10,981 nucleotides of DNA from a virus (lineage: Duplodnaviria > Heunggongvirae > Uroviricota > Caudoviricetes), in IMG/VR virus record IMGVR_UViG_2778261688_000005, positions 1 through 10,981 of that record. One strand, given 5' to 3'. Shown piece after piece: positions 1-10,981 of this stretch (the stretch's first letter is position 1; every line of letters begins with the position of its first letter). The notes under the pieces were generated by a model. It was given only the letters and a program-made list of their open reading frames with translations. It made no database searches and was not told the DNA's origin. The position numbers were made by a program, and so were the translations under genes.

Positions 1-753
1 GACAGGCGTGTCATCAGCATGGAGCTTACCGTCAGTCAGCACATAGTCCTGAAGCGCTTCTTCCAGCGGTGACAGTAGCCGGCAGCATGCATCCACCCAG
101 CCCGACAGCAGTGAACGACTCAGCTCCACGCCCTGGCGGCCGTACATTTCAGACTGGCGGTACAGCGGGGTGTGCTCTGCATACTTTGAGATCAGCACGC
201 GGGCCAGCAGCCCCGGTCCTGCGATACCCCGCTCGATGGGCCGTGAAGGCGCGGGGGCCTGCACGATGGCATCGCACTGAGTACAGGCATGCTTTTCACG
301 TACAGTCCGGATAACCCGGAAGGCGCTGCGCATCAGCTCCAGCTGTTCGGCGGCATCCTCACCCAGATAGCTCAGCGAGCCTCCACATTCCGGGCAGCAT
401 GACGCTGCCGGCAGCAGCCGTTTTTCATCGCGGGGGAGTGATTCGGGGAACGGTTTGCGGGTGCGGGTTTGACGCAGCGGGCGCTGCACGGCCGGGTCGT
501 CAACCCGACCGGTAAGGGTATCACTTTCTTTCTGAAGTGCCTTCAGGTCAGCTTCCATCTGTGCGATACGACGGGAGACTTTTTCCGAGCGGCTGCCGAA
601 GTTCATCCGGCGCAGCTTATCCAGCTGTGCCTGCAGATGGTCTATTTCGCGTTCACGCTCGTTCAGCTTTTCCTGCAGGGCACGGTTCAGCGCCTCCTGT
701 TCGGCAAGGAGACGTTTCAGTGCATTGATATCGTCAGGAAGTGAGCTGCTCAT
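1..753 (-). CDS. tnpC: IS66-family transposase TnpC, N-terminal 251 codons (3' end beyond window start)
   Basis: Reverse complement of 751-753 is ATG, followed by MSSSLPDDINA... The antisense of plus ORF 469..744 gives the leucine-rich coiled-coil region (LKRLLAEQEALNRALQEKLNEREREIDHLQAQLDKLRR) and a CxxC zinc-finger-like stretch typical of IS66 TnpC. No stop codon occurs in this frame down to position 1. Confidence 0.8.
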   Translation of the reverse strand, partial: MSSSLPDDINALKRLLAEQEALNRALQEKLNEREREIDHLQAQLDKLRRMNFGSRSEKVSRRIAQMEADLKALQKESDTLTGRVDDPAVQRPLRQTRTRKPFPESLPRDEKRLLPAASCCPECGGSLSYLGEDAAEQLELMRSAFRVIRTVREKHACTQCDAIVQAPAPSRPIERGIAGPGLLARVLISKYAEHTPLYRQSEMYGRQGVELSRSLLSGWVDACCRLLSPLEEALQDYVLTDGKLHADDTPV

Positions 754-801
754 ACCGGGTATATTACCAGGCTCATTCAGCGTCGACCAGGATAAAGAGG
801 C

Positions 802-1149
802 TTACAACATAGTCAGGGACGTAAGCAGTCTTTTAGGCTGCCGCCAGTCGATACCTTCCAGCAGCATCGCCAGCTGTGCCGGTGTGAGGAACACTTTGCC
901 ATCCCGGGCTGACGGCCAGGCGAAGCGGCCGCGCTCCAGCCGTTTGGTCAGCAGACACAGTCCATCGCCGGTAGACCAGAGGAGCTTTACCTGACTGCCA
1001 TTACGCCCACGGAAGATAAAAACGTGACCTGACATCGGATCGTCTTTCAGCGTCGTCTGCACCTTTGCCGCCAGGCCGTTGAAGCCGTTTCTCATATCGG
1101 TGATGCCAGCGACCAGCCAGATCTTTGTCCCTGATGGTAATGGGATCAA
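802..1149 (-). CDS. tnpB: IS66-family accessory protein TnpB (IS66 Orf2)
   Basis: 115-aa ORF MIPLPSGTKIWLVAGITDMRNGFNGLAAKV... has the length and signature of IS66 Orf2. It overlaps tnpA by 4 nt, as is usual for IS66 orfA/orfB. Confidence 0.85.
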   Translation of the reverse strand: MIPLPSGTKIWLVAGITDMRNGFNGLAAKVQTTLKDDPMSGHVFIFRGRNGSQVKLLWSTGDGLCLLTKRLERGRFAWPSARDGKVFLTPAQLAMLLEGIDWRQPKRLLTSLTML

Positions 1150-1550
1150 CGTTTGAGCTCCCGTATCAGCAGGTTCAGGATATTTTCGCTGATGGCACCA
1201 TTCAGACGGAGTGATCCGTGCCGGAACGTCACTTCACAGCTGATATTGAGTGATTCAGGTGTCGCAGCAGCTACAGGTTGTGACCGGGGGGAGGTTGTAG
1301 GGACAACATCTTCGGCATCAAGTGTTATCGGGAGCAGCTCAGGCACGTTGTTTTCTGTTGTTGAAGGAGGACGTAGTTTTCCTTCGCGCCAGTACTGGCG
1401 CCACTTGAACAGCAAATTATCGTTGATCCCATGCTCACGAGCGAGTTGCGCTACGGAGATCTCTGGTCGATGCGAGAGTTCAACCATTTTGATTTTGAAC
1501 TCAACGGGATAATTAGGGCTTTTTTTACGCACTGCGGTTAATGATTTCAT
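1146..1550 (-). CDS. tnpA: IS66-family TnpA (IS66 Orf1, helix-turn-helix protein)
   Basis: 134-aa ORF MKSLTAVRKKSPNYPVEFKIKMVELSHRPEISVAQLAREHGIN... with an HTH-like N-terminus, first gene of the IS66 triad, about 80 bp inside the putative IR. Confidence 0.85.
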   Translation of the reverse strand: MKSLTAVRKKSPNYPVEFKIKMVELSHRPEISVAQLAREHGINDNLLFKWRQYWREGKLRPPSTTENNVPELLPITLDAEDVVPTTSPRSQPVAAATPESLNISCEVTFRHGSLRLNGAISENILNLLIRELKR

Positions 1551-1599
1551 GGATTGCGTCCACCATATTTGGTGTCCACTATTCTCTCAGGAATTTCAG

Positions 1600-1631
1600 G
1601 ATCTGCCAGACGGTGCTGAGACGACGCTTAC
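1600..1631 (-). repeat. Putative terminal inverted repeat of the IS66-family element
   Basis: Reverse complement starts GTAAGCGTCGTCTCAGCACCGTCTGGCAG. The partner repeat lies outside the window, so this cannot be confirmed here. Confidence 0.45.
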
Positions 1632-1733
1632 GATAAAGACGGCTTTCTTGCCACAAATGGCAGCACGTTAACCATTCAGTCAAATGGTGCGGCGTTTACT
1701 GCCACAACCATCAAGATAATCGCGGAGCAGTAA
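1632..1733 (+). pseudogene. 3'-terminal 33-codon remnant of an upstream phage gene (probably the tail needle / P22 gene 26 equivalent), truncated by the IS66 insertion
   Basis: Open frame from 1632 (first base outside the IS terminus) to TAA at 1731-1733 encodes DKDGFLATNGSTLTIQSNGAAFTATTIKIIAEQ*. The stop overlaps the next ATG (TAATG), which is typical operon coupling. Identification as tail needle is by synteny only (P22 order 26-14-7-20-16). Confidence 0.4.
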
Positions 1734-2188
1734 TGATTCAGTTCAAACCAACGCGAAACATCGACCTGATCGAAGCAGTCGGAAATCACCCTGACATTAT
1801 TGCCGGGAGCAACAACGGTGATGGATACGACTACAAACCTGATTGCCGTTACTTTGAGGTGAACGTGCACGGGCAGTTCGGCGGCATTGTTTACTATCAG
1901 GAGATTCAGCCGCTGACATTAGATTGCCACGCCATGTACCTGCCAGAGATTCGCGGCTTCAGCAAGGAAATTGGGCTGGCGTTCTGGCGATACATTCTGA
2001 CTAACACCACCGTTCAGTGCGTCACATCGTTCGCCGCACGCAAATTCCGCCACGGTCAGATGTACTGCGCAATGATTGGCCTTAAGCGTGTAGGAACCAT
2101 CAAGAAATACTTCAAAGGCGTGGATGACGTGACTTTTTACAGCGCCACACGAGAAGAACTAATCGACTTCCTGAATCACGGGAGATAG
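1733..2188 (+). CDS. P22 gene 14-like protein (151 aa)
   Basis: ORF sits immediately upstream of the gp7/gp20/gp16-like cassette, in the position of P22 gene 14. GGAG lies 5 nt upstream of the ATG, and the start overlaps the preceding stop. Confidence 0.7.
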   Translation: MIQFKPTRNIDLIEAVGNHPDIIAGSNNGDGYDYKPDCRYFEVNVHGQFGGIVYYQEIQPLTLDCHAMYLPEIRGFSKEIGLAFWRYILTNTTVQCVTSFAARKFRHGQMYCAMIGLKRVGTIKKYFKGVDDVTFYSATREELIDFLNHGR

Positions 2189-2190
2189 CC

Positions 2191-2883
2191 ATGTTATATG
2201 CATTTAAGCTGGGCAGAAAACTGCGCGGCGAGGAACCTTATTGCCCTGAAAAGGGTGGGAAAGGTGGCAGTTCTGATAAAAGCGCAAAGTATGCAGCAGA
2301 AGCTCAGAAGTATGCCGCAGACCTGCAAAATCAGCAGTGGCAGACGATCATGAAAAACCTTGCTCCGTTCACGCCGCTTGCGGAGCAGTATGTTAACCAG
2401 CTTCAGAACCTTTCCAGTTTAGAAGGACAGGGTCAGGCACTTAATCAGTATTACAACTCTCAGCAGTATAAAGACCTTGCAGGCCAGGCTCGTTACCAGA
2501 GTCTTGCTGCTGCGGAGGCTACGGGAGGACTTGGTTCGACAGCCACAAGCAATCAACTTGCTACGATCGCGCCGACTCTCGGTCAGTCTTGGTTATCAAA
2601 CCAGATGAGCAATTACAACAATCTGGCAAACGTTGGGCTTGGTGCTCTGCAAGGTCAGGCAAACGCCGGGCAGACGTACGCCAACAACATGAGCAGCATT
2701 GCACAGCAAAGCGCAGCTCTTGCCGCTGCTAATGCCAACAAACCATCAAGTCTTCAGACAGCAATTAGTGGCGGAACGTCTGGTGCGATTGCCGGTGCAG
2801 GTCTTGCCAGCCTTTTGGGAACATCAACACCTTGGGGCGCTGGCATTGGTGCTGGTATCGGATTGCTTGGCTCGTTGTTTTAA
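2191..2883 (+). CDS. Ejection (internal virion) protein, P22 gp7-like (230 aa)
   Basis: GGGAG is 6 nt upstream of the ATG. The size is close to P22 gp7 (about 229 aa). The C-terminus is Gly/Ala-rich and hydrophobic (GAIAGAGLASLLG...GAGIGAGIGLLGSLF), consistent with a membrane-inserting segment. Position is second in the 14-7-20-16 order. Confidence 0.75.
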   Translation: MLYAFKLGRKLRGEEPYCPEKGGKGGSSDKSAKYAAEAQKYAADLQNQQWQTIMKNLAPFTPLAEQYVNQLQNLSSLEGQGQALNQYYNSQQYKDLAGQARYQSLAAAEATGGLGSTATSNQLATIAPTLGQSWLSNQMSNYNNLANVGLGALQGQANAGQTYANNMSSIAQQSAALAAANANKPSSLQTAISGGTSGAIAGAGLASLLGTSTPWGAGIGAGIGLLGSLF

Positions 2884-2892
2884 GGGGTAATC

Positions 2893-4188
2893 ATGGCTAC
2901 TTGGCAAGGATCAAATGGCGGATTGTTAGCTGGTATCGGCGGCGTCAACTCAAACGCTCCGAGCGTAAATGACATCGGCAATACGCTTCAGCTTATCAGG
3001 CAGAACAATGATATTGAGCGTTCAGGCGCTAACAATGTTGGGCTGACTGCTTTGCAAGGCCTTTCAGGTATTGCGGGGGTGTTTCAGCAGGAAAAGCAGG
3101 CTCAGCGGCAGAAAGAATTTCAGCAGGCATACGCTAATGCTTATGCGTCTGGTGATCGCGGTGCTTTGCGTCAGTTGGCTACTCAATATCCAGACCAGAT
3201 TGAATCCGTTCGTAAAGGCATGGGATTCATTGATGAAGATCAGCGTAATTCTATCGGCACCTTAGCGGCTGGCGCACGCCTTGCGTCATCGTCTCCAGAA
3301 GCAATGCAATCATGGCTGCAAAACAACGCCAAGGAACTGACTCGCGTCGGTGTTGACCCTAATAACGTTGCTCAGATGTATCAGCAGAACCCTTCAGGAT
3401 TTGGTGAGTTTGTTGATCACCTTGGAATGGCTGCTCTTGGTCCGATTGATTACTTCAATGTTCAGGACAAGATGGCTGGTCGTGAAATTGACCGAGGCAG
3501 GCTGGCAGAGACAATCCGCAGCAATCAGGCTGGAGAAGCACTAACAGCGCGTGGTCAGGACATCCAGATACGTGGACAGAACATCAGCGCACAGAATGCT
3601 GCTCTTTCCCGCGAAATACAAAGAGCAGAATTACAAGAAAAGGCTCTGGACAGACAGATAGCCAGAGAAAGCAATCAGTTAAAGCTTGAAGAGCTAAAAC
3701 AGAAACAGGCAGATGTTCGGCAAAAGGCTGACATAGCCCGCGCTGACAGGCAGGCCGCCGCTCAGGGTGCAGTTGATACGTTCAGCACAGCACTTGATTC
3801 TCTCAACGAGATAGAGCAAAGCCCCGGCCTTTCAAAAGCAGTAGGAATTCGCTCAGCGTTTCCAACAGTTCCTGGCTCTGATGCGGCTAACTTTGAAGCA
3901 AGGCTCGACACCTTTAAAGCTCAAACTTTCCTTCCTATGGTGCAGTCCCTTAAGGGTATGGGGGCTCTTTCAGATGCTGAGGGTAAAAAATTATCCGATG
4001 CGGTTGGTGCCCTAAGCCCCAAAATGAGCGAAAAGGCTTTTCGTGACTCTATCGGAAAGATTAGAAATCAGCTTGAAAGCAAGTTGAGCACTGTTAAAAA
4101 ACAGTTTGATTATCAGGATCCAGTACAGAATACGCCAGGACAACAATCTCCTGCTGGCAGTAACTTTTCTTCACTATGGGGTGATTAA
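2893..4188 (+). CDS. Ejection protein, P22 gp20-like (431 aa)
   Basis: AAGGGG ribosome-binding site upstream. Contains a long charged coiled-coil-like segment (REIQRAELQEKALDRQIARESNQLKLEELKQKQADVRQKADIARADRQ). Third in the syntenic cassette; its stop overlaps the next start (TAATG at 4186-4190). Confidence 0.75.
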   Translation: MATWQGSNGGLLAGIGGVNSNAPSVNDIGNTLQLIRQNNDIERSGANNVGLTALQGLSGIAGVFQQEKQAQRQKEFQQAYANAYASGDRGALRQLATQYPDQIESVRKGMGFIDEDQRNSIGTLAAGARLASSSPEAMQSWLQNNAKELTRVGVDPNNVAQMYQQNPSGFGEFVDHLGMAALGPIDYFNVQDKMAGREIDRGRLAETIRSNQAGEALTARGQDIQIRGQNISAQNAALSREIQRAELQEKALDRQIARESNQLKLEELKQKQADVRQKADIARADRQAAAQGAVDTFSTALDSLNEIEQSPGLSKAVGIRSAFPTVPGSDAANFEARLDTFKAQTFLPMVQSLKGMGALSDAEGKKLSDAVGALSPKMSEKAFRDSIGKIRNQLESKLSTVKKQFDYQDPVQNTPGQQSPAGSNFSSLWGD

Positions 4189-6185
4189 TGGCTAAAGCAT
4201 GGAAAGATGTTATCGCCTCTCCACAGTATCAGGCGTTAGCACCAGAACAAAAAGCGCAGGCTCAGGAGCAATACTTCAATGAAGTCGTGGCCCCGCAAGC
4301 CGGAGAAAATGCAGAGCAGGCTAAGCAAGCTTTCTATGCAGCCTATCCATTGCCATCTGTGCAGCCAGTGGAGACACAGCAACCAGTAGCACAGCAACAA
4401 CCACAGCAAAGTGGATTTATGTCTGATCTTGGTGAAGCAGTGAAAGAGACTGGTCGCGGACTGGTGCAGGCTGGCGTGAACGTGGCAAACATACCTGCAT
4501 CAGTTGCCGATGCTGTAACAAGCGCGGCGGCTTGGGCTGGCGGTAAACTCGGCATTGGCGATGGTACATATCAACCAGCGCCACGAGTAACAACGCAGGG
4601 ATTAGAGCAGGACTTTGGCCTTCGGCAAGGTGCGCTGACTCCACAAACGACAGAGGGAAGGGTATTTGCTGAAGCATTGCCTTACCTCACTCCTGCTGGC
4701 GTTGAGAGAGCGGCGGTACAGGCACCAACACTTGCTGGTCGAATTGCTCATGGGGCAACTCGCCTTCTCGCAGAAAACGCAGTTGGATCACTTGCTGCAA
4801 ACAGTATGAAAGATGATGCGGAAGCACTCGCTACCGATTTAGGTGTTGGCGTTCTGGCAGGCGGCGCTATTAACGCTGCTGGACGTGGATTAGGTGCTGC
4901 TTATCGTGGCGTCCGCGGTGCTATTGCGCCAGAAGCGCAGCAAGCTATCAGATTTGCAGAGCGTGAAGGAGTTCCTCTGCACACCACAGACCTGTTACAA
5001 CCCACTTCCCGCGTCGGAAAAATGGCGCAGACTACAGCAGAAAATATCCCTCTGGCTGGCACAAGCGGAATGAGAGCAACGCAACAGGAAGCGAGAAGCC
5101 AGTTGGTGCAGAGATTTGCCGATAAATTCGGTGAGTATGATCCAGCGGTTGTTATTGACAGCCTTAAAGCGAAAACATCAGGAATTCGTCGTGCCGCCGG
5201 TAATCGACTGGAGCAGGTTCAGAATGCTATGGCTGGAGTAAACATTCAGCCTGCGCGAGCAATTCAGCAGATTGATACAGAAATATCTAACCTGCAGAAG
5301 CTTGGTAAGGTCGCCGATAACGAGACTATTTCAAAACTTCAGTCCTATCGTGATGAGCTTGTTCGCAATGCTGGTCCGGATGGTCCGGTAAATCTGGATT
5401 TGAAGCAATTAAGCGATCTGCGCAGCCAGTTCAGAATGGACGTGAAGGGGGAACGACCAGTGTTACCAAACCGTTCCGATGCTGCCATTCAGCGCGTTTA
5501 CAAGGCGATGACAGACGATATCAATGGTGCCATTGGTCAGAATCTTGGCAACGATACTCTCCGTAAATATCAGCAGGCCAATGCCGTCTACGCTGACGAA
5601 GCGGCGAAACTAAAGAATACCAGGCTGAAGAATGTTCTCATGAAAGGCGACCTGACGCCGGAAGTTGTCAACAACATGCTATTCAGCAAGAACAAATCGG
5701 AAATTAAGACGCTGTATAACTCAGTTGGTCGTGTTGGCAGGGCGCAAATGCGCAATGGCATCATTGGAAAGGCGATGGAGAAATCTGGCGGATCCCCTGA
5801 CCAGTTCCTTCGGCAGCTTAACATCCTGCAAAACCAGACTGGCATCACATTTAAAGGTCAGGAAGCCGCTTATCTGAAAGGATTGAAAAACTACCTGCAA
5901 TCCACGCAGCAGGCTGCAAAAGCAGCAGTAACAACACCAACAGGGCAGCAAACCATCCCGTTCATTATCGGGTATGGGACGGCAATGAACCCGGCGACAA
6001 CTGGCGCAGCGGTAAGCTACGGACTTCTTACTCGCGCCTATGAGAGCGAGCCATTCAGAAATGCAATGCTCCGAATGGCAAATACCCCACGCGGATCGAC
6101 AGCGTTTGAGAAAGCCATGCAGCAAGCGCAAAAAGCGATTAATGCACTGACGCAGGGTGCGAAGTCTGATTCGTTGTCAGAATAG
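4188..6185 (+). CDS. Ejection protein, P22 gp16-like (665 aa)
   Basis: Large Ala/Gln-rich protein, last gene of the cassette and translationally coupled to the gp20-like gene. The size is in the range of P22 gp16 (about 609 aa). Confidence 0.75.
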   Translation: MAKAWKDVIASPQYQALAPEQKAQAQEQYFNEVVAPQAGENAEQAKQAFYAAYPLPSVQPVETQQPVAQQQPQQSGFMSDLGEAVKETGRGLVQAGVNVANIPASVADAVTSAAAWAGGKLGIGDGTYQPAPRVTTQGLEQDFGLRQGALTPQTTEGRVFAEALPYLTPAGVERAAVQAPTLAGRIAHGATRLLAENAVGSLAANSMKDDAEALATDLGVGVLAGGAINAAGRGLGAAYRGVRGAIAPEAQQAIRFAEREGVPLHTTDLLQPTSRVGKMAQTTAENIPLAGTSGMRATQQEARSQLVQRFADKFGEYDPAVVIDSLKAKTSGIRRAAGNRLEQVQNAMAGVNIQPARAIQQIDTEISNLQKLGKVADNETISKLQSYRDELVRNAGPDGPVNLDLKQLSDLRSQFRMDVKGERPVLPNRSDAAIQRVYKAMTDDINGAIGQNLGNDTLRKYQQANAVYADEAAKLKNTRLKNVLMKGDLTPEVVNNMLFSKNKSEIKTLYNSVGRVGRAQMRNGIIGKAMEKSGGSPDQFLRQLNILQNQTGITFKGQEAAYLKGLKNYLQSTQQAAKAAVTTPTGQQTIPFIIGYGTAMNPATTGAAVSYGLLTRAYESEPFRNAMLRMANTPRGSTAFEKAMQQAQKAINALTQGAKSDSLSE

Positions 6186-6226
6186 CCTTTCAAACACCAG
6201 GAACGTGCAAAAACCAAATATGTAGA

Positions 6227-6254
6227 ATGCAATATTCATCATATCTCTTTGCAT
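6227..6254. promoter_or_regulatory. Second copy of the dyad motif (ATGCAA-N16-TTGCAT with internal CATCATATC) in the gp16 / mnt intergenic region
   Basis: ATGCAA 6227-6232, CATCATATC 6237-6245, TTGCAT 6249-6254. Same sequence elements as the 6609-6637 site, arranged differently. Confidence 0.25.
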
Positions 6255-6274
6255 AAATCCTCCGTAATGGATGG

Positions 6275-6535
6275 TTAGTTGCTGTCTTTTTTATATAGCT
6301 CCTTGAGCGTATCAAAGACAATTTTCTTAACCATATCAGATTGTTGTTCTGCCATACGCTCTGCATCGTCAATGTAAACTGATGCAGAGCTTTGTTTATC
6401 CAATGATTCTTCAATCGCTGCAATTATCTCTGAGTTCAGCGACCTGTTATTCATCTTCGCACGCTGCTTAATTTTCGCGTGGAGTTCATGCGGAAGTCTC
6501 AAGTGAAACTGCGCCTCGTCGTATTTGCTGTACAT
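6275..6535 (-). CDS. mnt: Mnt-like ribbon-helix-helix repressor (Arc/Mnt family); the ORF extends to an upstream ATG at 6568, but the internal ATG at 6535 aligns with the P22 Mnt start
   Basis: FHLRLPHELHAKIKQRAKMNNRSLNSEIIAAIEESL matches the RHH region of P22 Mnt as I recall it (HFNFRMPMEVREKLKFRAEANGRSMNSELLQIVQDAL). The C-terminus DDAERMAEQQSDMVKKIVFDTLKELYKK matches the Mnt tetramerisation helix (NDAERLADEQSELVKKMVFDTLKDLYKK). Confidence 0.8.
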   Translation of the reverse strand: MYSKYDEAQFHLRLPHELHAKIKQRAKMNNRSLNSEIIAAIEESLDKQSSASVYIDDAERMAEQQSDMVKKIVFDTLKELYKKDSN

Positions 6536-6608
6536 CCTTGATGCCTCACCAGTTGGGTGGAATGGCATCGTAACCTACTGGATAAATACTCAATAGTACC
6601 ATTTCGGT

Positions 6609-6637
6609 ATGCAATCACATCATGGTTGCATCATATC
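6609..6637. promoter_or_regulatory. Dyad element ATGCAA-N11-TTGCAT followed by CATCATATC in the mnt / tailspike divergent intergenic region; candidate operator and promoter region
   Basis: ATGCAA at 6609-6614 and its reverse complement TTGCAT at 6626-6631; the 9-mer CATCATATC at 6629-6637 is repeated on the other side of mnt. It lies between two divergently transcribed genes. Confidence 0.3.
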
Positions 6638-6656
6638 ATTCGTTTGGAGCAATGAA

Positions 6657-8639
6657 ATGTCAGATATCACCGCAAATGTTGTGGTAAGCATGCCTTCGCA
6701 ACTCTTCACTATGGCTCGTTCTTTTAAAGCCGTAGCCAATGGCAAAATTTATATCGGAAAAATTGACACTGACCCGGTAAATCCAGAAAACCAGATCCAG
6801 GTTTATGTGGAGAACGAAGATGGCTCTCATGTTCCTGTTTCGCAACCAATCATCATTAACGCTGCTGGATATCCGGTATATAACGGACAGATTGCCAAGT
6901 TCGTAACTGTGCAAGGCCATTCTATGGCTGTTTATGATGCGTACGGTGCGCAGCAGTTCTATTTTCCTAATGTGCTGAAGTATGACCCGGATCAGCTTGA
7001 GCAGAGGCTCTCTTCTTTTGATGGGCAAAAATATATAGGAGTATGTCCAGACATTGTCACATTACGAACAATAGAGCCAACGGTTGATGGCCAAATGATA
7101 ACTCTTAAGCAACACACAGATGGAACAGGGATTGGTGGTGGTAGATTTCGCGCTGTTTTACATGGTGAATCTTACTCTGATAACAACGGGACTATAGTTA
7201 AAACTGTTGGCGGCTCTGCTTGGTTGCGCATTAATGCTGATGTAGTAAACCCATTGATGTTTGGAGCTTATGGAGACGGTATTACTGATGACACGGAAGC
7301 TGTTAATAATGCAATTGCTTCATCAAGCAATATTGATGGCGTTGCAAACACATACCTTGTATCAGGTAATGGCATACAAATTCAGCATGGTAAAACATTT
7401 AAAAATGCAACAATAACTGAGTCGAAAGCAAGCAATGCCGTTATGCTGAGATTTACAGGTAGTAATTCGGCAATAGAAAACATTATTTTCGATGGTTCCA
7501 ATGGATTAACAAGCAGAGGGGTAATTGTCAACGCTGGTCTTTCTGATATACACATCTACAAATGCAGAGCGACTGACCTTAAAAAACCATTTGTAGGAGT
7601 GTCTGGAGACTATGATAATAATCTTTTCTGTGTTCGAGTAACAATTGAAAAATGTTTCGCCAATAACTGCGGAAATGATGGTACAAATTACGACCGTTCA
7701 ACAATAATATTTGACGGGGTTTCAGGTTGCACTGTAAAAGATTGCTATTTCAGCTCATGCAATTGGGGAATTACTTTCAGACAGCCGTATGACTACCCAG
7801 AGTTAACAAAACCTTATGCGTACTACAACAGAGTTGATGGTTGCTACTTATCCGGGAAGACCGGTTACCCATATAATCAGGGTATCAGCGCGCAAAGCCA
7901 AAAACATTTCTCAGCATCAGGAAACACGATAGAAGGATTTTTAGGTAACGCTATCGATAACCAAAGATGTGACTTTAGTCGCATCGAAAACAATAAACTT
8001 TCATCCGGAGATGATGGTATCTTTTTTGGTGATTTAAACTGCAAGGGCCACGTTGTGACTGGTAACGTGATTACTGGATGTGCAAGGGGTATTAGGGTTT
8101 ACGGTGCCGTTGGAGATTGGGCTAATCAGGCCATGACGGATATCACCATAACCGGTAACATAATAACGGACTCCACCGTAGTAGGCATCTATGTGTACCG
8201 CACGGAGCCGACTAACTCCTTTGCTGGTTTTAACATCACAGAAAATATCATAGACAACTCAGGCACAAGGTCGCTAACCGGCAACACACAAGGCATTCTC
8301 GTAACAGGGTTGTCAGGTGGCGTCGTGTCGAATAACGTTATACGCAATACACGCATGGAAGGGTTAAGGTTCGTTAACTCTGTCGGGGTTGTGGCTGTGG
8401 GTAATTCTGTGACTGGATTCGATTACTCTGCTACGGCGCAAGCTGGTATTTACATCGATGTAACTTCAAGAGGTATACAACTAAGAAATTCAACTGTTTC
8501 ATCTTCAGGTGGTTCAGGTGCAGCAGTTAGAGAAGCGGGCGTTAATAACACGGTCACCGGAACCAGATGGAATGGAGTCACTACTGGGGTTAACTCAACC
8601 GGCACAGGTGCTGTATTGGACGATAACGTTGGATTTTAA
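6657..8639 (+). CDS. Tailspike protein: P22-type head-binding N-terminal domain fused to a right-handed beta-helix (pectate-lyase-like) receptor-binding domain, a putative polysaccharide depolymerase
   Basis: From the ATG at 6657 (GGAG 7 nt upstream) the protein starts [59 protein letters not shown]...VLKYDPDQ, which matches the P22 gp9 N-terminus ([43 protein letters not shown]...). After about residue 115 it diverges into a sequence with a [21 protein letters not shown] motif and repetitive G/N/T/V-rich beta-helix-like segments. The ORF track starts at 6609, but the homology-supported start is 6657. Confidence 0.85.
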
Positions 8640-8641
8640 AA

Positions 8642-8666
8642 AAAGAGCGCCTTGTTGGCGCTCTTT
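8642..8666. terminator. Hairpin terminator between the convergent tailspike and acyltransferase genes
   Basis: AAAGAGCGCC-TTGTT-GGCGCTCTTT gives a 10-bp stem with a 5-nt loop. On the minus strand it is followed by a run of seven T (complement of AAAAAAA at 8638-8644), a strong intrinsic terminator for the acyltransferase transcript. On the plus strand only TTT follows. Confidence 0.6.
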
Positions 8667-8668
8667 AA

Positions 8669-9691
8669 TCACGTTATTATTTTCAATTTATTCTTTATCA
8701 TTATTGGTAAAATTGGTACTATAATTCCGAGAAAAACATACAATATAAATGAGAATTGATTGTATACATTATTTAGCTTCCCATGCTCATGGTTTTCAAA
8801 TCCAAAAAATAGAAATAATAAATTTAACATTGCAAAAACAGATAGATGCCATGACATTATTGTTTTCGAATTGTCTCCTATCATTTTCAATAATCTATTA
8901 TATTTAGATGATAGGATATTGGATATTATTAACACTACAAAGATACATATCAATGATGCTATTGATGTCATAATAAAACCAGATGGGTATGTTGACCATG
9001 CCATTGCACTTTGTTTTATCAATCCAAATGATATCATTGTTCCTGTTATAACTATCAAAATCATTGCTGATATTGGGTTATTTACTGTTAGTGATTGTTT
9101 TTTTAGTGAAAAGCCAAGTAGCATAAACATAGAACCATAAAGTGACTGTGCGGAAACATTATAAATTTGATATCCAGTCTCCTTAAATTTTACTGCGCAT
9201 ATGTTAAGCGCCACAAAGCCAATAATTATTGCAATTATAATTAACGTAATATTTTGGTGTTTAAACTCAGTAGTTACTGAGATTATAATCCTTGATATTA
9301 TTGATGATAAGTAATAAGCAAGCAAAAACCAACAAACAAGAAATAATGGGTTGTTGTGAAAGTTCTTTTCTAGTGGGTTGGTAGTGAACGGTTCGCCAAA
9401 ATACAGTCCTGTAAATTTATTTAGTGTTATTGCTAAAACTCCAGTTAGAATGTACGTAAAAACAATGTATGGGATTATTTTTTTTGATAGTTTTCTCAAT
9501 GCGTTGAACGTAACTATCTCATTTTTTAATGTCAATCCACCAACAAAAAAGAAAAAAGGCATGTGATATAAATACGGATGCATTACATTAAAGAACCCAC
9601 TTGTGTAATGACCTATCACAACAACTATTATGCCGATTGCCTTCATGTAACTTATGGACAAGCTTTGTTCATTGGTAATTTGGTGCATTTT
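8669..9691 (-). CDS. oac: Acyltransferase-3 family integral membrane protein, Oac-like O-antigen acetyltransferase (lysogenic conversion); the ORF extends to an ATG at 9733, but 9691 is the preferred start
   Basis: Polytopic hydrophobic protein of about 340 aa with a conserved His early in the first membrane segment (MKAIGIIVVVIGHY) and an FFFFVGG motif. It sits between tailspike and integrase, as oac does in Sf6 and the gtr genes do in P22. The gene is markedly AT-rich relative to its flanks. The second ATG is preceded by AAGAGA; the first has no Shine-Dalgarno sequence. Confidence 0.75.
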   Translation of the reverse strand, partial: KMHQITNEQSLSISYMKAIGIIVVVIGHYTSGFFNVMHPYLYHMPFFFFVGGLTLKNEIVTFNALRKLSKKIIPYIVFTYILTGVLAITLNKFTGLYFGEPFTTNPLEKNFHNNPLFLVCWFLLAYYLSSIISRIIISVTTEFKHQNITLIIIAIIIGFVALNICAVKFKETGYQIYNVSAQSLYGSMFMLLGFSLKKQSLTVNNPISAMILIVITGTMISFGLIKQSAMAWSTYPSGFIMTSIASLICIFVVLIISNILSSKYNRLLKMIGDNSKTIMSWHLSVFAMLNLLFLFFGFENHEHGKLNNVYNQFSFILYVFLGIIVPILPIMIKNKLKIIT

Positions 9692-9733
9692 TATCTCTTC
9701 ATTTCTATGTGGCAATATTTTCGCAAAAAACAT

Positions 9734-9823
9734 ACGAATGTTAATTTATTAATATACCAATAACATTTGAGTTAGTATGCAATTTTAAAATGTTTGTTCT
9801 ATGTGTGTGCTTTGGATGATATA
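9734..9823 (-). promoter_or_regulatory. AT-rich intergenic region upstream of the acyltransferase gene; likely promoter and possible attP location by synteny
   Basis: The minus strand contains TTGCAT (9777-9782) and an extended -10-like TGGTATATT (about 9751-9759), but the spacing between them is about 20 nt, which is too long. No tRNA-like core is visible. Confidence 0.25.
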
Positions 9824-10981
9824 TCACTCCACCTTTTCATCAAGCCAGTCCGCCCACCACTGCATCATTTCTCTGCGCTTATCTAGATATTGAGCATGGT
9901 TGTAAATCCCGCGCACAGATCCGCCGTTGGCATGTGCCAGTTGCACTTCAATAGCGTCAGCAGGCCATTCGTGCTCGTTCATAATCGTGCTGAATTCATG
10001 CCTGAATCCGTGACCGCTTTCCAGCCCCTCATAGCCGATTTGTTTGATCACAAGTAGCACCGCGTTCTCGCAGATTGGCTTCTTCTTATCGTTACGCCCT
10101 GCAAAAACAAACTCTGATACTGGTTTGGTGATGGAGCTTAACGTAGTGAGAAGTTCAACCACCTGGTCTGACATCGGGACCACATGAATTTTGCGTCCCT
10201 TCATCACATTGGCGTCGATGGTGATAATCCTGTTTTCAAAATCGACGTTCTTCCATAGCATGGAACGAAGCTCTTTTGTTCTGAGGGCTGTGTAGCGTAA
10301 AACTTTGGTCGCAATGAGCGATACGATACTTCCTGAAAATGTTGCCAGTGCTTTGTTAAATGCCGGGATCTGGTCTGCAGGAAGAAACGGGAAGTTCTTC
10401 TTGCGGTATCCTTTCATGGCGTCAGCAAGGTCAGGTGCCGGGTTATATTTAGCCCTGCCGGTGACAATAGCGTAACGGAAAACCTCGCCGCATCTTCTGC
10501 GGGCTTTATTTGCTCGCTCCATTGCGCCGCGATCTTCAAATCTGCGGATTACTTCCAGCAGTTGCATCGGCTCAATATCCTGAATTTCAAGGCCGCCGAT
10601 GATGGGTAAAATGTCGTCATCAAACATTTTGGCAAGTTCAGTTGCATAGCCTACTGACCAGACTTGCTTCTTGTGCTCGTACCATTCCTTGTAAATCGCA
10701 CTAAAGGAATTGTTGTTAGACGAAGCCTTTTTCGCCTTTACCGGATCGATGCCAACCGAGATGTCTTTCCTCGCAGTCCATGCTTTATCCCTTGCCTCTT
10801 GCAAAGTCATAAGCGGATATTTTCCGACGGTCAGGATTTTCTCCTTACCGTCAATCTTGTAGCGAAGCTGCCATACCTTTTTCCCGGATACAGGGACATA
10901 AAGGTACAGGCCATTACCATCGAGAAGGCGGTATGGTTTTTCTTTCGGCTTTGCTGCTTCAATCTGCTTAACGGTGAGCAT
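9824..10981 (-). CDS. int: Tyrosine site-specific integrase, P4-type (arm-binding N-terminal domain plus catalytic domain)
   Basis: 385-aa ORF. The N-terminus LTVKQIEAAKPKEKPYRLLDGNGLYLYVPVSGKKVWQLRYKIDGKE is the typical P4-family arm-binding domain. The C-terminus carries the catalytic residues in HGFRHEFST...LAHANGGSVRGIYNHAQY (R...HxxR...Y). The start ATG is the last codon of the window, so the true N-terminus could lie a few codons further upstream. Confidence 0.9.
   Translation of the reverse strand: MLTVKQIEAAKPKEKPYRLLDGNGLYLYVPVSGKKVWQLRYKIDGKEKILTVGKYPLMTLQEARDKAWTARKDISVGIDPVKAKKASSNNNSFSAIYKEWYEHKKQVWSVGYATELAKMFDDDILPIIGGLEIQDIEPMQLLEVIRRFEDRGAMERANKARRRCGEVFRYAIVTGRAKYNPAPDLADAMKGYRKKNFPFLPADQIPAFNKALATFSGSIVSLIATKVLRYTALRTKELRSMLWKNVDFENRIITIDANVMKGRKIHVVPMSDQVVELLTTLSSITKPVSEFVFAGRNDKKKPICENAVLLVIKQIGYEGLESGHGFRHEFSTIMNEHEWPADAIEVQLAHANGGSVRGIYNHAQYLDKRREMMQWWADWLDEKVE

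What the first reader, a model, noticed from the sequence alone, without database searches (positions are those of the whole stretch)
6657..8639. Modular tailspike: conserved P22-type head-binding domain joined to a different beta-helix receptor-binding domain
The first roughly 115 residues align closely with the P22 gp9 N-terminus, ending at the shared VLKYDPDQ. The sequence then changes to a domain with a pectate-lyase-like [18 protein letters not shown] motif, a cysteine-containing stretch (CRATDLKK...[10 protein letters not shown]...[15 protein letters not shown]) and G/N/T/V-rich repeats typical of parallel beta-helices. The swap point immediately after the head-binding domain is the classic recombination joint that changes host O-antigen or capsule specificity. 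The substrate of this enzyme cannot be inferred from sequence alone.
Basis: partly seen in the sequence, partly recalled or inferred. Interest (0 to 1): 0.55.

Follow-up and report, generated by a model that had tools for sequence, protein, structure and literature searches.

The report
Modular prophage tailspike, uncharacterised receptor domain
This is the tailspike gene of an Sf6/P22-like prophage of E. coli: it carries the usual conserved virion-attachment domain joined to a rare, uncharacterised sugar-cutting beta-helix that travels with a neighbouring O-antigen-modifying gene, a clean but ordinary example of how phages swap host specificity.

Summary
Window 6657-8639 (+) encodes a 660-aa tailspike. 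Residues 1-113 are a P22-type head-binding domain (Pfam E=1.6e-67; 92% identical to Sf6 gp14, 76% to P22 gp9). Nucleotide similarity to 31 phage records and 1,130 complete E. coli genomes stops at nt 338-367 of the gene, right after VLKYDPDQ.

- An ~80-residue D3'-type module (aa 118-195) sits between the anchor and the beta-helix and is shared with phage CBA120 TSP2.
- The beta-helix itself is a mosaic.
- The receptor domain and the convergent AT-rich acyltransferase (8669-9688, -) replace the Sf6 region as one block (6996-9830). The same pairing occurs in a contractile-tail-type temperate phage.

Six of eight different genomic contexts of homologues have an acyltransferase, a hexapeptide acetyltransferase or gtrABC immediately downstream, which points to O-antigen as the receptor.

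The receptor domain has no characterised relative. The best phage-record match is 36% identical, and no solved structure matches beyond the D3' module. The family is tiny and mostly from Enterobacter. Whether the enzyme is a hydrolase or a lyase is unresolved, and the serogroup is unknown.

Verdict: a new member of a well-known kind, of modest interest.

The parts
6646..6649 (+). Shine-Dalgarno GGAG, 7 nt upstream of the ATG at 6657
   Evidence: Read directly from the sequence. Homology to Sf6 starts at 6646.
6657..8639 (+). Tailspike gene, 660 codons plus stop
   Evidence: Translation. An identical protein, P0003, is annotated 'phage tailspike protein' in NCBI/UniRef. It lies after the gp14-gp7-gp20-gp16 homologues of a P22/Sf6-like late operon.
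6657..6995 (+). Head-binding (virion anchor) domain, aa 1-113, ending in VLKYDPDQ
   Evidence: PF09008 at E=1.6e-67. 92% identical to Sf6 gp14 and 76% to P22 gp9. Nucleotide similarity to 31 phage records and 1,130 E. coli genomes ends at gene nt 338-367. Sf6 blastn gives 86.9% over 6646-6995, then nothing.
7008..7241 (+). D3'-type small beta-sandwich module (Pfam PF27114 Phage_tail_beta), aa 118-195, preceded by a short neck helix (aa ~111-118)
   Evidence: phmmer against PDB: aa 118-236 match CBA120 TSP2 (5w6p 14-130, 6w4q 255-371) at E=5e-33. PF27114 is listed for the protein. The modelled strands and helix (126-130, H133-138, 147-152, 160-167, 180-182, 188-191) fit the D3' fold described for TSP2 (PMC7506556). 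This segment is 45-76% identical across relatives whose beta-helices are only 20-60% identical.
7242..8636 (+). Right-handed parallel beta-helix receptor-binding and probable depolymerase domain, aa 196-660. The N-cap motif [19 protein letters not shown] lies at 7260-7316.
7878..8105 (+). Most conserved core of the beta-helix (aa 408-483): [36 protein letters not shown]. It contains invariant D434, D453, D459 and R480 and is the inferred active site.
   Evidence: Invariant columns in alignments A1 and A2, with positions. There is a weak profile alignment of the N431..D434 / D452-D453 stretch to the GH28 'NxDGID ... GDD' signature of 3jur (whole-protein E=1.3e-4; that stretch alone E=18). The catalytic role is an inference, not a demonstrated result.
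7557..8100 (+). Zone of intragenic recombination joints inside the beta-helix
   Evidence: Identity was computed in 90-nt bins. Upstream of ~7650 the gene is 98-100% identical to L006 (E. coli prophage, P0015) and 44-61% to L013 (P0016). From 8097 to 8456 it is 58-68% identical to L006 but 91-94% to L013. Per-segment amino-acid identities agree.
8669..9688 (-). Convergent membrane acyltransferase (Acyl_transf_3), 339 aa (the ORF can extend to 9733). It is the probable O-antigen-modifying, seroconversion gene.
   Evidence: PF01757 at E=1.4e-15. GC is 29-31% against 44-50% in the flanks. It occupies the position of Sf6 oac but is unrelated in sequence. There is no tblastn hit in phage records and no megablast hit in complete E. 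coli genomes. It is 99-100% identical in L006 next to the 88%-identical tailspike, and 80% identical in L011 next to a 57%-identical receptor domain in a phage with contractile-tail-type baseplate genes.
6996..9830 (.). Block replaced relative to Sf6: tailspike receptor domain plus acyltransferase
   Evidence: blastn against Sf6 aligns 1632-6255 (96.8%), 6646-6995 (86.9%) and 9831-10981 (96.4%), with nothing in between.
6275..6568 (-). mnt-type repressor gene (Arc/Mnt fold), divergent from the tailspike gene
   Evidence: PF03869 and PF11423. Absent at this place in Sf6.
9824..10981 (-). Integrase, at the end of the prophage next to the yfdC-mlaA-fadL chromosomal side
   Evidence: Pfam integrase domains. 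96.4% identical to Sf6 int. Flanking genes are seen in L002.

Best explanation
The gene encodes the tailspike of an Sf6-like (Lederbergvirus, P22-type) prophage of E. coli. The protein has three modules.
- aa 1-113: a head-binding domain that plugs the spike into the P22-type tail hub.
- aa 118-195: a D3'-type adaptor module after a short neck.
- aa 196-660: a parallel beta-helix that binds, and most likely cleaves, the host O-antigen so that the virion can reach the outer membrane.

The most likely chemistry is endoglycosidase (hydrolase) action using invariant carboxylates D434, D453 and D459 on two adjacent rungs. Specificity was acquired by recombination at the joint just after VLKYDPDQ, and was further reshuffled inside the beta-helix. 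The receptor domain is inherited together with the convergent acyltransferase downstream. After lysogeny this acyltransferase probably acylates the same O-antigen and so blocks superinfection by phages carrying this spike.

Shown here: the domain architecture, the breakpoints, the fold, the rarity of the family and the linkage to the acyltransferase. Inferred: O-antigen as substrate, hydrolysis as the mechanism, the catalytic residues, trimer formation and the exclusion role of the acyltransferase.
For: - Genomic setting: the gene lies after gp14, gp7, gp20 and gp16 and before int, 96-97% identical to Sf6, at the yfdC side of the chromosome.
- Joint: matches to 31 phage records and 1,130 E. 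coli genomes end at gene nt 338-367.
- Modular reuse: homologues of the same receptor domain carry at least four other kinds of N-terminal region, for example PF18668 Tail_spike_N and long N-terminal regions without a Pfam match. They occur in phages with contractile-tail-type baseplate genes and in siphovirus-like phages, mostly of Enterobacter.
- O-antigen as receptor: in 6 of 8 distinct contexts the gene immediately downstream and convergent is an Acyl_transf_3 acyltransferase (window, L006, L011), a hexapeptide acetyltransferase (L012, L014; passes the Pfam threshold) or gtrABC (L009, L015). That an O-antigen modification gene sits behind the receptor-binding gene is a described feature of Lederberg- and Uetakeviruses (PMC10408124). 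Sf6 has oac at this very position.
- Enzyme: D434, D453, D459, N431, Q408 and R480 are invariant across 54 sequences that are down to ~25% identical. Catalytic carboxylate pairs or triads in a beta-helix groove are the norm for tailspike glycosidases, for example TSP2 D506/E568/D571 (PMC7506556).
Against: - No substrate or activity data exist, and no characterised homologue was found.
- The GH28-like alignment is weak (E=18 for that stretch alone). It puts an Asn (N431) where GH28 has a catalytic Asp.
- Model coordinates could not be inspected, so the spatial clustering of D434, D453 and D459 was not measured.
- The host serogroup is unknown.
- In this strain the prophage's tail needle gene is cut by an IS element, so the spike may not be in use here.
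Confidence: 0.75

Rival explanations
1. The architecture and O-antigen receptor are the same, but the beta-helix is a polysaccharide lyase (beta-elimination on a uronic-acid-containing O-antigen) rather than a glycoside hydrolase. The invariant Asp residues would act as Ca2+ or substrate ligands and R480 as the base.
Confidence: 0.18
2. The receptor is not O-antigen but a capsule or exopolysaccharide (a K antigen or colanic acid), as for the CUS-3 endosialidase spike.
For: The best PHROG hit is named 'tail spike protein with colanic acid degradation activity' (phrog_8280). There are PDB sequence matches to WceF, an exopolysaccharide-modifying enzyme. Many structural neighbours are capsule depolymerases. 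The same head-binding anchor is used by a capsule-specific spike in CUS-3.
Against: The PHROG and WceF matches lie mainly in the N-terminal modules: aa 1-481 map onto profile positions 1-389 only, and WceF aligns to aa 7-218. gtrABC, a bactoprenol-linked O-antigen glucosylation system by established knowledge, follows the receptor-domain homologue in two independent contexts. Acyltransferases sit at the Sf6 oac position.
Confidence: 0.1
3. The beta-helix only binds its glycan and has no catalytic activity, or the gene is a decaying remnant in a defective prophage.
For: The prophage in this strain has an IS66-family insertion in the tail needle gene. No catalytic motif of a defined CAZy family is met.
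Against: The ORF is intact and is 99-100% identical in at least nine protein clusters from about 18 contigs, including a prophage with an intact needle gene (L003). Polar and acidic residues are strictly invariant in one region across distant homologues, which argues for a conserved active site under selection.
Confidence: 0.05

Closest known systems
Shigella phage Sf6 gp14 tailspike with oac (Lederbergvirus Sf6)
   Same: The prophage backbone is the same: 96-97% nucleotide identity for gp14 to gp16 and for int. The head-binding domain is 92% identical. The gene order is the same: tailspike, then a convergent O-antigen acyltransferase, then int.
   Different: The receptor domain from aa ~114 onward is unrelated in sequence. 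The Sf6 spike lacks the D3' module. The acyltransferase shares only Pfam family membership with Oac. An mnt gene is present upstream here and absent in Sf6.
P22 gp9, HK620 gp9 and CUS-3 tailspikes (the P22-type modular tailspike paradigm)
   Same: A conserved N-terminal anchor ending at the ...YDPDQ joint, followed by an exchangeable beta-helix receptor domain. Nucleotide similarity stops at the same point. The principle is described in PMC10408124.
   Different: The beta-helix belongs to a different, rare lineage, with no PDB sequence match to these proteins past aa 152. In the model the helix runs to the C-terminus with no separate C-terminal domain. The specificity is unknown.
CBA120 TSP2 (ORF211; PDB 5W6P, 6W4Q), the O157-specific tailspike of a Kuttervirus
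   Same: aa 118-236 align to TSP2 255-371 at E=5e-33. This covers the end of the neck, the D3' open-face beta-sandwich and the capping helix with the first rung. TSP2 is also the top Foldseek hit in the PDB.
   Different: The remainder of the beta-helix is not alignable by sequence. TSP2's catalytic D506/E568/D571 and its large D4 beta-sandwich have no counterpart identified here. The virion anchor is different (T4 gp10-like against P22 head-binding).
Receptor-domain homologues in Enterobacter prophages and phages (for example P0027, P0029, P0031, P0048; Enterobacter phage IME278 tail spike)
   Same: They share the D3' module plus beta-helix lineage, at 32-66% identity over aa 118-660, with the same invariant core residues. 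They are often followed by an O-antigen modification gene.
   Different: They have different N-terminal anchors and virion types. All are uncharacterised, so they give no substrate information.

Membership tests
P22-type (Lederbergvirus) tailspike | N-terminal head-binding domain (Pfam PF09008) | tested here: met
   PF09008 covers aa 1-113 at E=1.6e-67, 225 bits against a cut-off of 24. 92% identical to Sf6 gp14 and 76% to P22 gp9.
P22-type (Lederbergvirus) tailspike | Encoded at the end of the P22-like late operon, after the ejection-protein genes, in a P22-like genome | tested here: met
   gp14, gp7, gp20 and gp16 homologues lie upstream and int downstream, with 96-97% nucleotide identity to Sf6.
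P22-type (Lederbergvirus) tailspike | C-terminal right-handed parallel beta-helix receptor-binding domain | tested here: met
P22-type (Lederbergvirus) tailspike | Homotrimer with receptor-destroying activity on the host surface polysaccharide | not testable with these tools
P22 / Sf6 endorhamnosidase or HK620 endo-N-acetylglucosaminidase receptor domains (orthology of the catalytic domain) | Sequence homology of the beta-helix domain to these enzymes | tested here: not met
   phmmer matches to Sf6 and P22 chains are confined to aa 1-115/152. The remaining stretches have E of 13 or more. Megablast similarity ends at gene nt ~340.
D3' / Phage_tail_beta module (PF27114), as in CBA120 TSP2 and TSP4 | A ~60-80-residue open-face beta-sandwich (4-stranded sheet plus a 2-turn helix) between the neck helix and the beta-helix cap | tested here: met
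   aa 118-236 match 5w6p/6w6q-type TSP2 chains (5w6p, 6w4q) at E=5e-33. PF27114 is precomputed for the identical protein. The model's secondary structure fits the fold description in PMC7506556.
Glycoside hydrolase family 28 (polygalacturonase-like) | Conserved NTD, G/QDD, G/SHG and RIK motifs with three catalytic Asp (motifs recalled from the GH28 literature) | tested here: not met
   The profile hit to 3jur has E=1.3e-4 overall. The catalytic stretch aligns only weakly (E=18), with invariant N431 in place of the first catalytic Asp, and only D453 of the 'DD' pair is conserved. No GHG or RIK equivalents were seen.
Alginate C5-epimerase / lyase-type CASH beta-helix (AlgE4, AlgG) | Catalytic YG(F/I)DPH(D/E) motif (recalled from the AlgE4/AlgG literature) | tested here: not met
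Acyl_transf_3 O-antigen acyltransferases (Oac-like seroconversion genes), for the neighbouring gene | Multi-pass membrane acyltransferase (PF01757) encoded next to the tailspike and integrase of a temperate phage | tested here: met
   PF01757 at E=1.4e-15, 57.7 bits against a cut-off of 31. Same position as Sf6 oac.
Acyl_transf_3 O-antigen acyltransferases (Oac-like seroconversion genes), for the neighbouring gene | Acylates the O-antigen and alters phage adsorption | not testable with these tools
   No sequence relationship to Sf6 Oac beyond the family. The function is inferred from position and from linkage to the receptor domain.

The most novel reading that the evidence does not exclude
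The receptor domain and its acyltransferase may form a two-gene 'specificity plus seroconversion' cassette. It would move as a unit between unrelated temperate phage types (P22-like podoviruses of E. coli and phages with contractile-tail-type baseplate genes) and across genera from Enterobacter into E. coli. The spike itself could be a CASH/AlgE-like lyase acting on an acidic O-antigen, which would be the first O-antigen lyase on a P22-type anchor.
Probability: 0.15. Interest if true: 0.45.

Novelty: new member of a known kind. Interest (0 to 1): 0.3.

Why it matters
Tailspike receptor domains decide which serotypes a phage, or an engineered tailocin or phage, can attack. This one is an intact, confidently foldable domain of unknown specificity from a very small family: 11 representatives at E<=1e-30 among 1.84 billion proteins.

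It comes with a built-in clue to its receptor, the linked acyltransferase. It also has natural chimeras that mark where such domains can be cut and rejoined: after YDPDQ, after the D3' module, and inside the helix near aa 330 and aa 480. That is useful for predicting receptor-binding-protein specificity and for engineering.

It does not change how tailspike modularity is understood.

Tried and rejected
- Looked for a near-identical or characterised receptor domain. Megablast against phages and against 5,426 complete E. coli genomes found only the anchor. tblastn against phages gave at most 36% identity. Blastn 'distant' mode against E. coli found four genomes with short 69-73% stretches. PDB sequence and profile searches found nothing beyond the D3' module. 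BFVD gave only uncharacterised spikes. A literature search found no study of this domain.
- Tried to find the host serogroup. The strain accession is not in the paper library, and the O-antigen locus is not within reach of the contigs returned.
- Rejected the longer ORF starting at 6609: it has no ribosome-binding site, and homology and gene calls start at 6657.
- Rfam found no RNA family in the window. The promoter and terminator scan was at shuffle level and found no terminator in the 29-nt gap between the convergent genes.
- NCBIfam and PHROGs gave no specific name for the receptor domain or the acyltransferase.

Full report
**What the window is.** The window is identical in coordinates to the first 10,981 nt of E. 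coli draft contig NLGU01000015.1 (GCA_002225785.1). It holds the right end of an Sf6-like (Lederbergvirus, P22-type) prophage.
- Homologues of P22 gp14 (1733-2188), gp7 (2191-2883), gp20 (2893-4188) and gp16 (4188-6185)
- An mnt-type repressor gene (6275-6568, -)
- The tailspike gene (6657-8639, +)
- A membrane acyltransferase gene (8669-9688, -)
- An integrase gene (9824-10981, -)

Beyond the integrase lie yfdC-, mlaA- and fadL-type chromosomal genes. blastn against Sf6 aligns 1632-6255 (96.8%), 6646-6995 (86.9%) and 9831-10981 (96.4%), and nothing else.

**Checking the observation.** The start at 6657 is preferred over the in-frame ATG at 6609 for three reasons: GGAG lies at 6646-6649, homology to Sf6 starts at 6646, and an identical 660-aa protein (P0003) is on record as 'phage tailspike protein'.

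Residues 1-113 are a head-binding domain. Pfam PF09008 scores E=1.6e-67. Identity is 104/113 to Sf6 gp14 and 86/113 to P22 gp9. Megablast of the whole gene finds 31 phage records and 1,130 of 5,426 complete E. coli genomes. In every case only nt 1 to ~338-367 match, and VLKYDPDQ is encoded by nt 316-339.

Residues 118-236 match CBA120 TSP2 (PDB 5W6P residues 14-130, 6W4Q residues 255-371) at E=5e-33. The precomputed Pfam domain there is PF27114, Phage_tail_beta. In the TSP2 structure paper this region is the end of the neck helix, the 'D3'' open-face beta-sandwich (TSP2 270-328) and the capping helix of the beta-helix (PMC7506556). The AlphaFold2 model has the matching strands and short helix at 126-191.

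Across 53 homologues this module stays 45-76% identical while the beta-helices fall to 20-60%. Some proteins (P0061-P0064) share only the stretch up to aa ~224-251. The D3'/beta-helix boundary is therefore a second exchange point. The [10 protein letters not shown]... motif (aa 203-220) is the common N-cap motif of beta-helix carbohydrate enzymes. In a profile search it aligns to a beta-1,3-glucanase, to endosialidases and to mannuronan epimerases, so it does not indicate a mechanism.

**The beta-helix domain.** The domain spans aa 196-660.
- The model is confident, with pLDDT mostly above 90 from residue 130 onward; overall mean pLDDT is 84.7 and pTM 0.77. It shows a regular beta-helix running to the C-terminus.
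- Foldseek against the PDB ranks CBA120 TSP2 first because of the D3' module.
- Foldseek against BFVD ranks an uncharacterised Enterobacter phage IME278 spike first.

At sequence level the domain has no characterised relative. The best phage-record hit is 35.6% identical. No complete E. coli genome has it, and only four show short 69-73% stretches. In an exhaustive HMMER scan of 1.84 billion representative proteins, only 83 match at E<=1e-3 and 11 at E<=1e-30.

Close copies (88-100% identical) occur in roughly 27 E. coli draft or metagenome contigs. More distant copies (32-66%) are mostly in Enterobacter kobei, E. cloacae, E. mori and E. hormaechei.

**Probable active site.** Alignments of 54 and of 11 sequences leave these positions invariant: C338, G339, C368, W370, G371, N391, Q408, S411, Q415, F428, N431, D434, D453, F456, G458, D459, C475 and R480. 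They cluster in four motifs at aa 408-483: [27 protein letters not shown] and CARGIRVYG.

**Recombination inside the beta-helix.** Nucleotide identity in 90-nt bins shows the gene is 98-100% identical to the tailspike of a different P22-like E. coli prophage (L006, P0015) from nt ~6927 to ~7646. It is then only 58-80% identical, apart from one 99% bin at 7917-8006 over the GNAID core. The reverse holds for L013 (P0016), which sits on an Enc34-like siphovirus contig from a metagenome. There identity is 44-61% up to ~7556, 80-87% to ~8096, and 91-94% from 8097 to 8456. Segment-wise amino-acid identities agree. The receptor domain is therefore itself a chimera of two lineages of the same family.

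**Linkage to O-antigen modification genes.** The acyltransferase (PF01757, E=1.4e-15) sits where Sf6 has oac. It is unrelated in sequence to Oac and has only 29-31% GC. It has no match in phage records or in complete E. coli genomes. Together with the receptor domain it forms the block 6996-9830 that differs from Sf6.

In L006, whose late region upstream shows no nucleotide similarity to the window, tailspike, acyltransferase and integrase are collinear with the window, and the acyltransferase is 99-100% identical. In L011, a temperate phage with sheath-initiator, Baseplate_J and wedge genes, a 57%-identical receptor domain on a different N-terminus is followed by a convergent acyltransferase that is 80% identical to the window's. 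The acyltransferase's other relatives are again from Enterobacter and E. coli.

Other contexts carry a hexapeptide-repeat acetyltransferase (L012, L014) or gtrABC (L009/L010, L015) at the same place. Two contexts (L007, L013) have none. Three different kinds of O-antigen-modifying function next to one receptor-domain family are best explained by an O-antigen receptor and by post-lysogeny receptor masking. This is the arrangement known for Sf6 and noted for Lederberg- and Uetakeviruses (PMC10408124).

**Comparison with known systems, and novelty.** The anchor-plus-exchangeable-receptor-domain design, the YDPDQ joint and the trailing seroconversion gene are all textbook features of P22-like phages. 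The protein meets the testable defining features of a P22-type tailspike. It is not an orthologue of the P22, Sf6 or HK620 catalytic domains, and it does not meet the GH28 or alginate-epimerase motif definitions.

It is a new, uncharacterised member of a known kind. Extra points of modest interest are the D3' adaptor on a P22 anchor, the intra-helix chimerism, and the receptor-domain and acyltransferase pair being shared across virion types and genera. The serogroup and the chemistry remain open.

**Caveat for this strain.** The first ~1,632 nt of the window are the end of an IS66-family ISEc22. It interrupts the tail needle gene, leaving only its last ~33 codons at 1633-1732. A 99.9%-identical prophage in another strain (L003) has the needle gene intact but carries a frameshift in the acyltransferase. 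The prophage here is probably defective, even though the tailspike ORF is intact.

Noticed in passing
window 1-1732: The window and its contig start inside an IS66-family element, ISEc22 (tnpA 1146-1550 -, tnpB 802-1149 -, transposase 5' part 1-753 -). The element has inserted into the P22-gp26-type tail needle gene, and only its last ~33 codons (1633-1732) remain. The prophage in this strain is probably defective. The same prophage in L003 has an intact 282-aa needle gene.
   Followed up: yes
L003 ~12100-13030 (equivalent to window ~9105): In an otherwise 99.9%-identical prophage, the acyltransferase carries a 1-nt indel (frameshift) and is called as two ORFs. This natural knock-out would be useful for testing the seroconversion idea.
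   Followed up: partly
window 8600-9800: The acyltransferase gene is strikingly AT-rich (29-31% GC against 44-50% in the flanking phage genes). This suggests recent foreign origin. Its relatives are in Enterobacter, Hafnia and Salmonella.
   Followed up: partly
window 6256-6645: An mnt-type repressor gene stands alone between gp16 and the tailspike gene, with no arc or ant, which looks like an immI remnant. It is absent at this place in Sf6, whereas L006 has mnt, arc and ant plus a PIN-domain gene here.
   Followed up: no
window 7557-8456; L006 and L013: The beta-helix is a chimera. The proximal half is about 100% identical to one E. coli prophage allele. The distal part (aa 481-600) is 91-94% identical in nucleotides to a spike on an Enc34-like siphovirus contig from a metagenome.
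   Followed up: yes
L012 9314-9898 and L014 7389-7979: Some receptor-domain homologues are followed by a ~195-aa hexapeptide-repeat acetyltransferase, which is cytoplasmic by fold, instead of the membrane acyltransferase. This is a second, unrelated acetylation gene at the same position.
   Followed up: partly
window 8640-8668: Only 29 nt separate the convergent stop codons of the tailspike and acyltransferase genes. The consensus scan found no intrinsic terminator there, whereas Sf6 is annotated with one at the equivalent spot.
   Followed up: no
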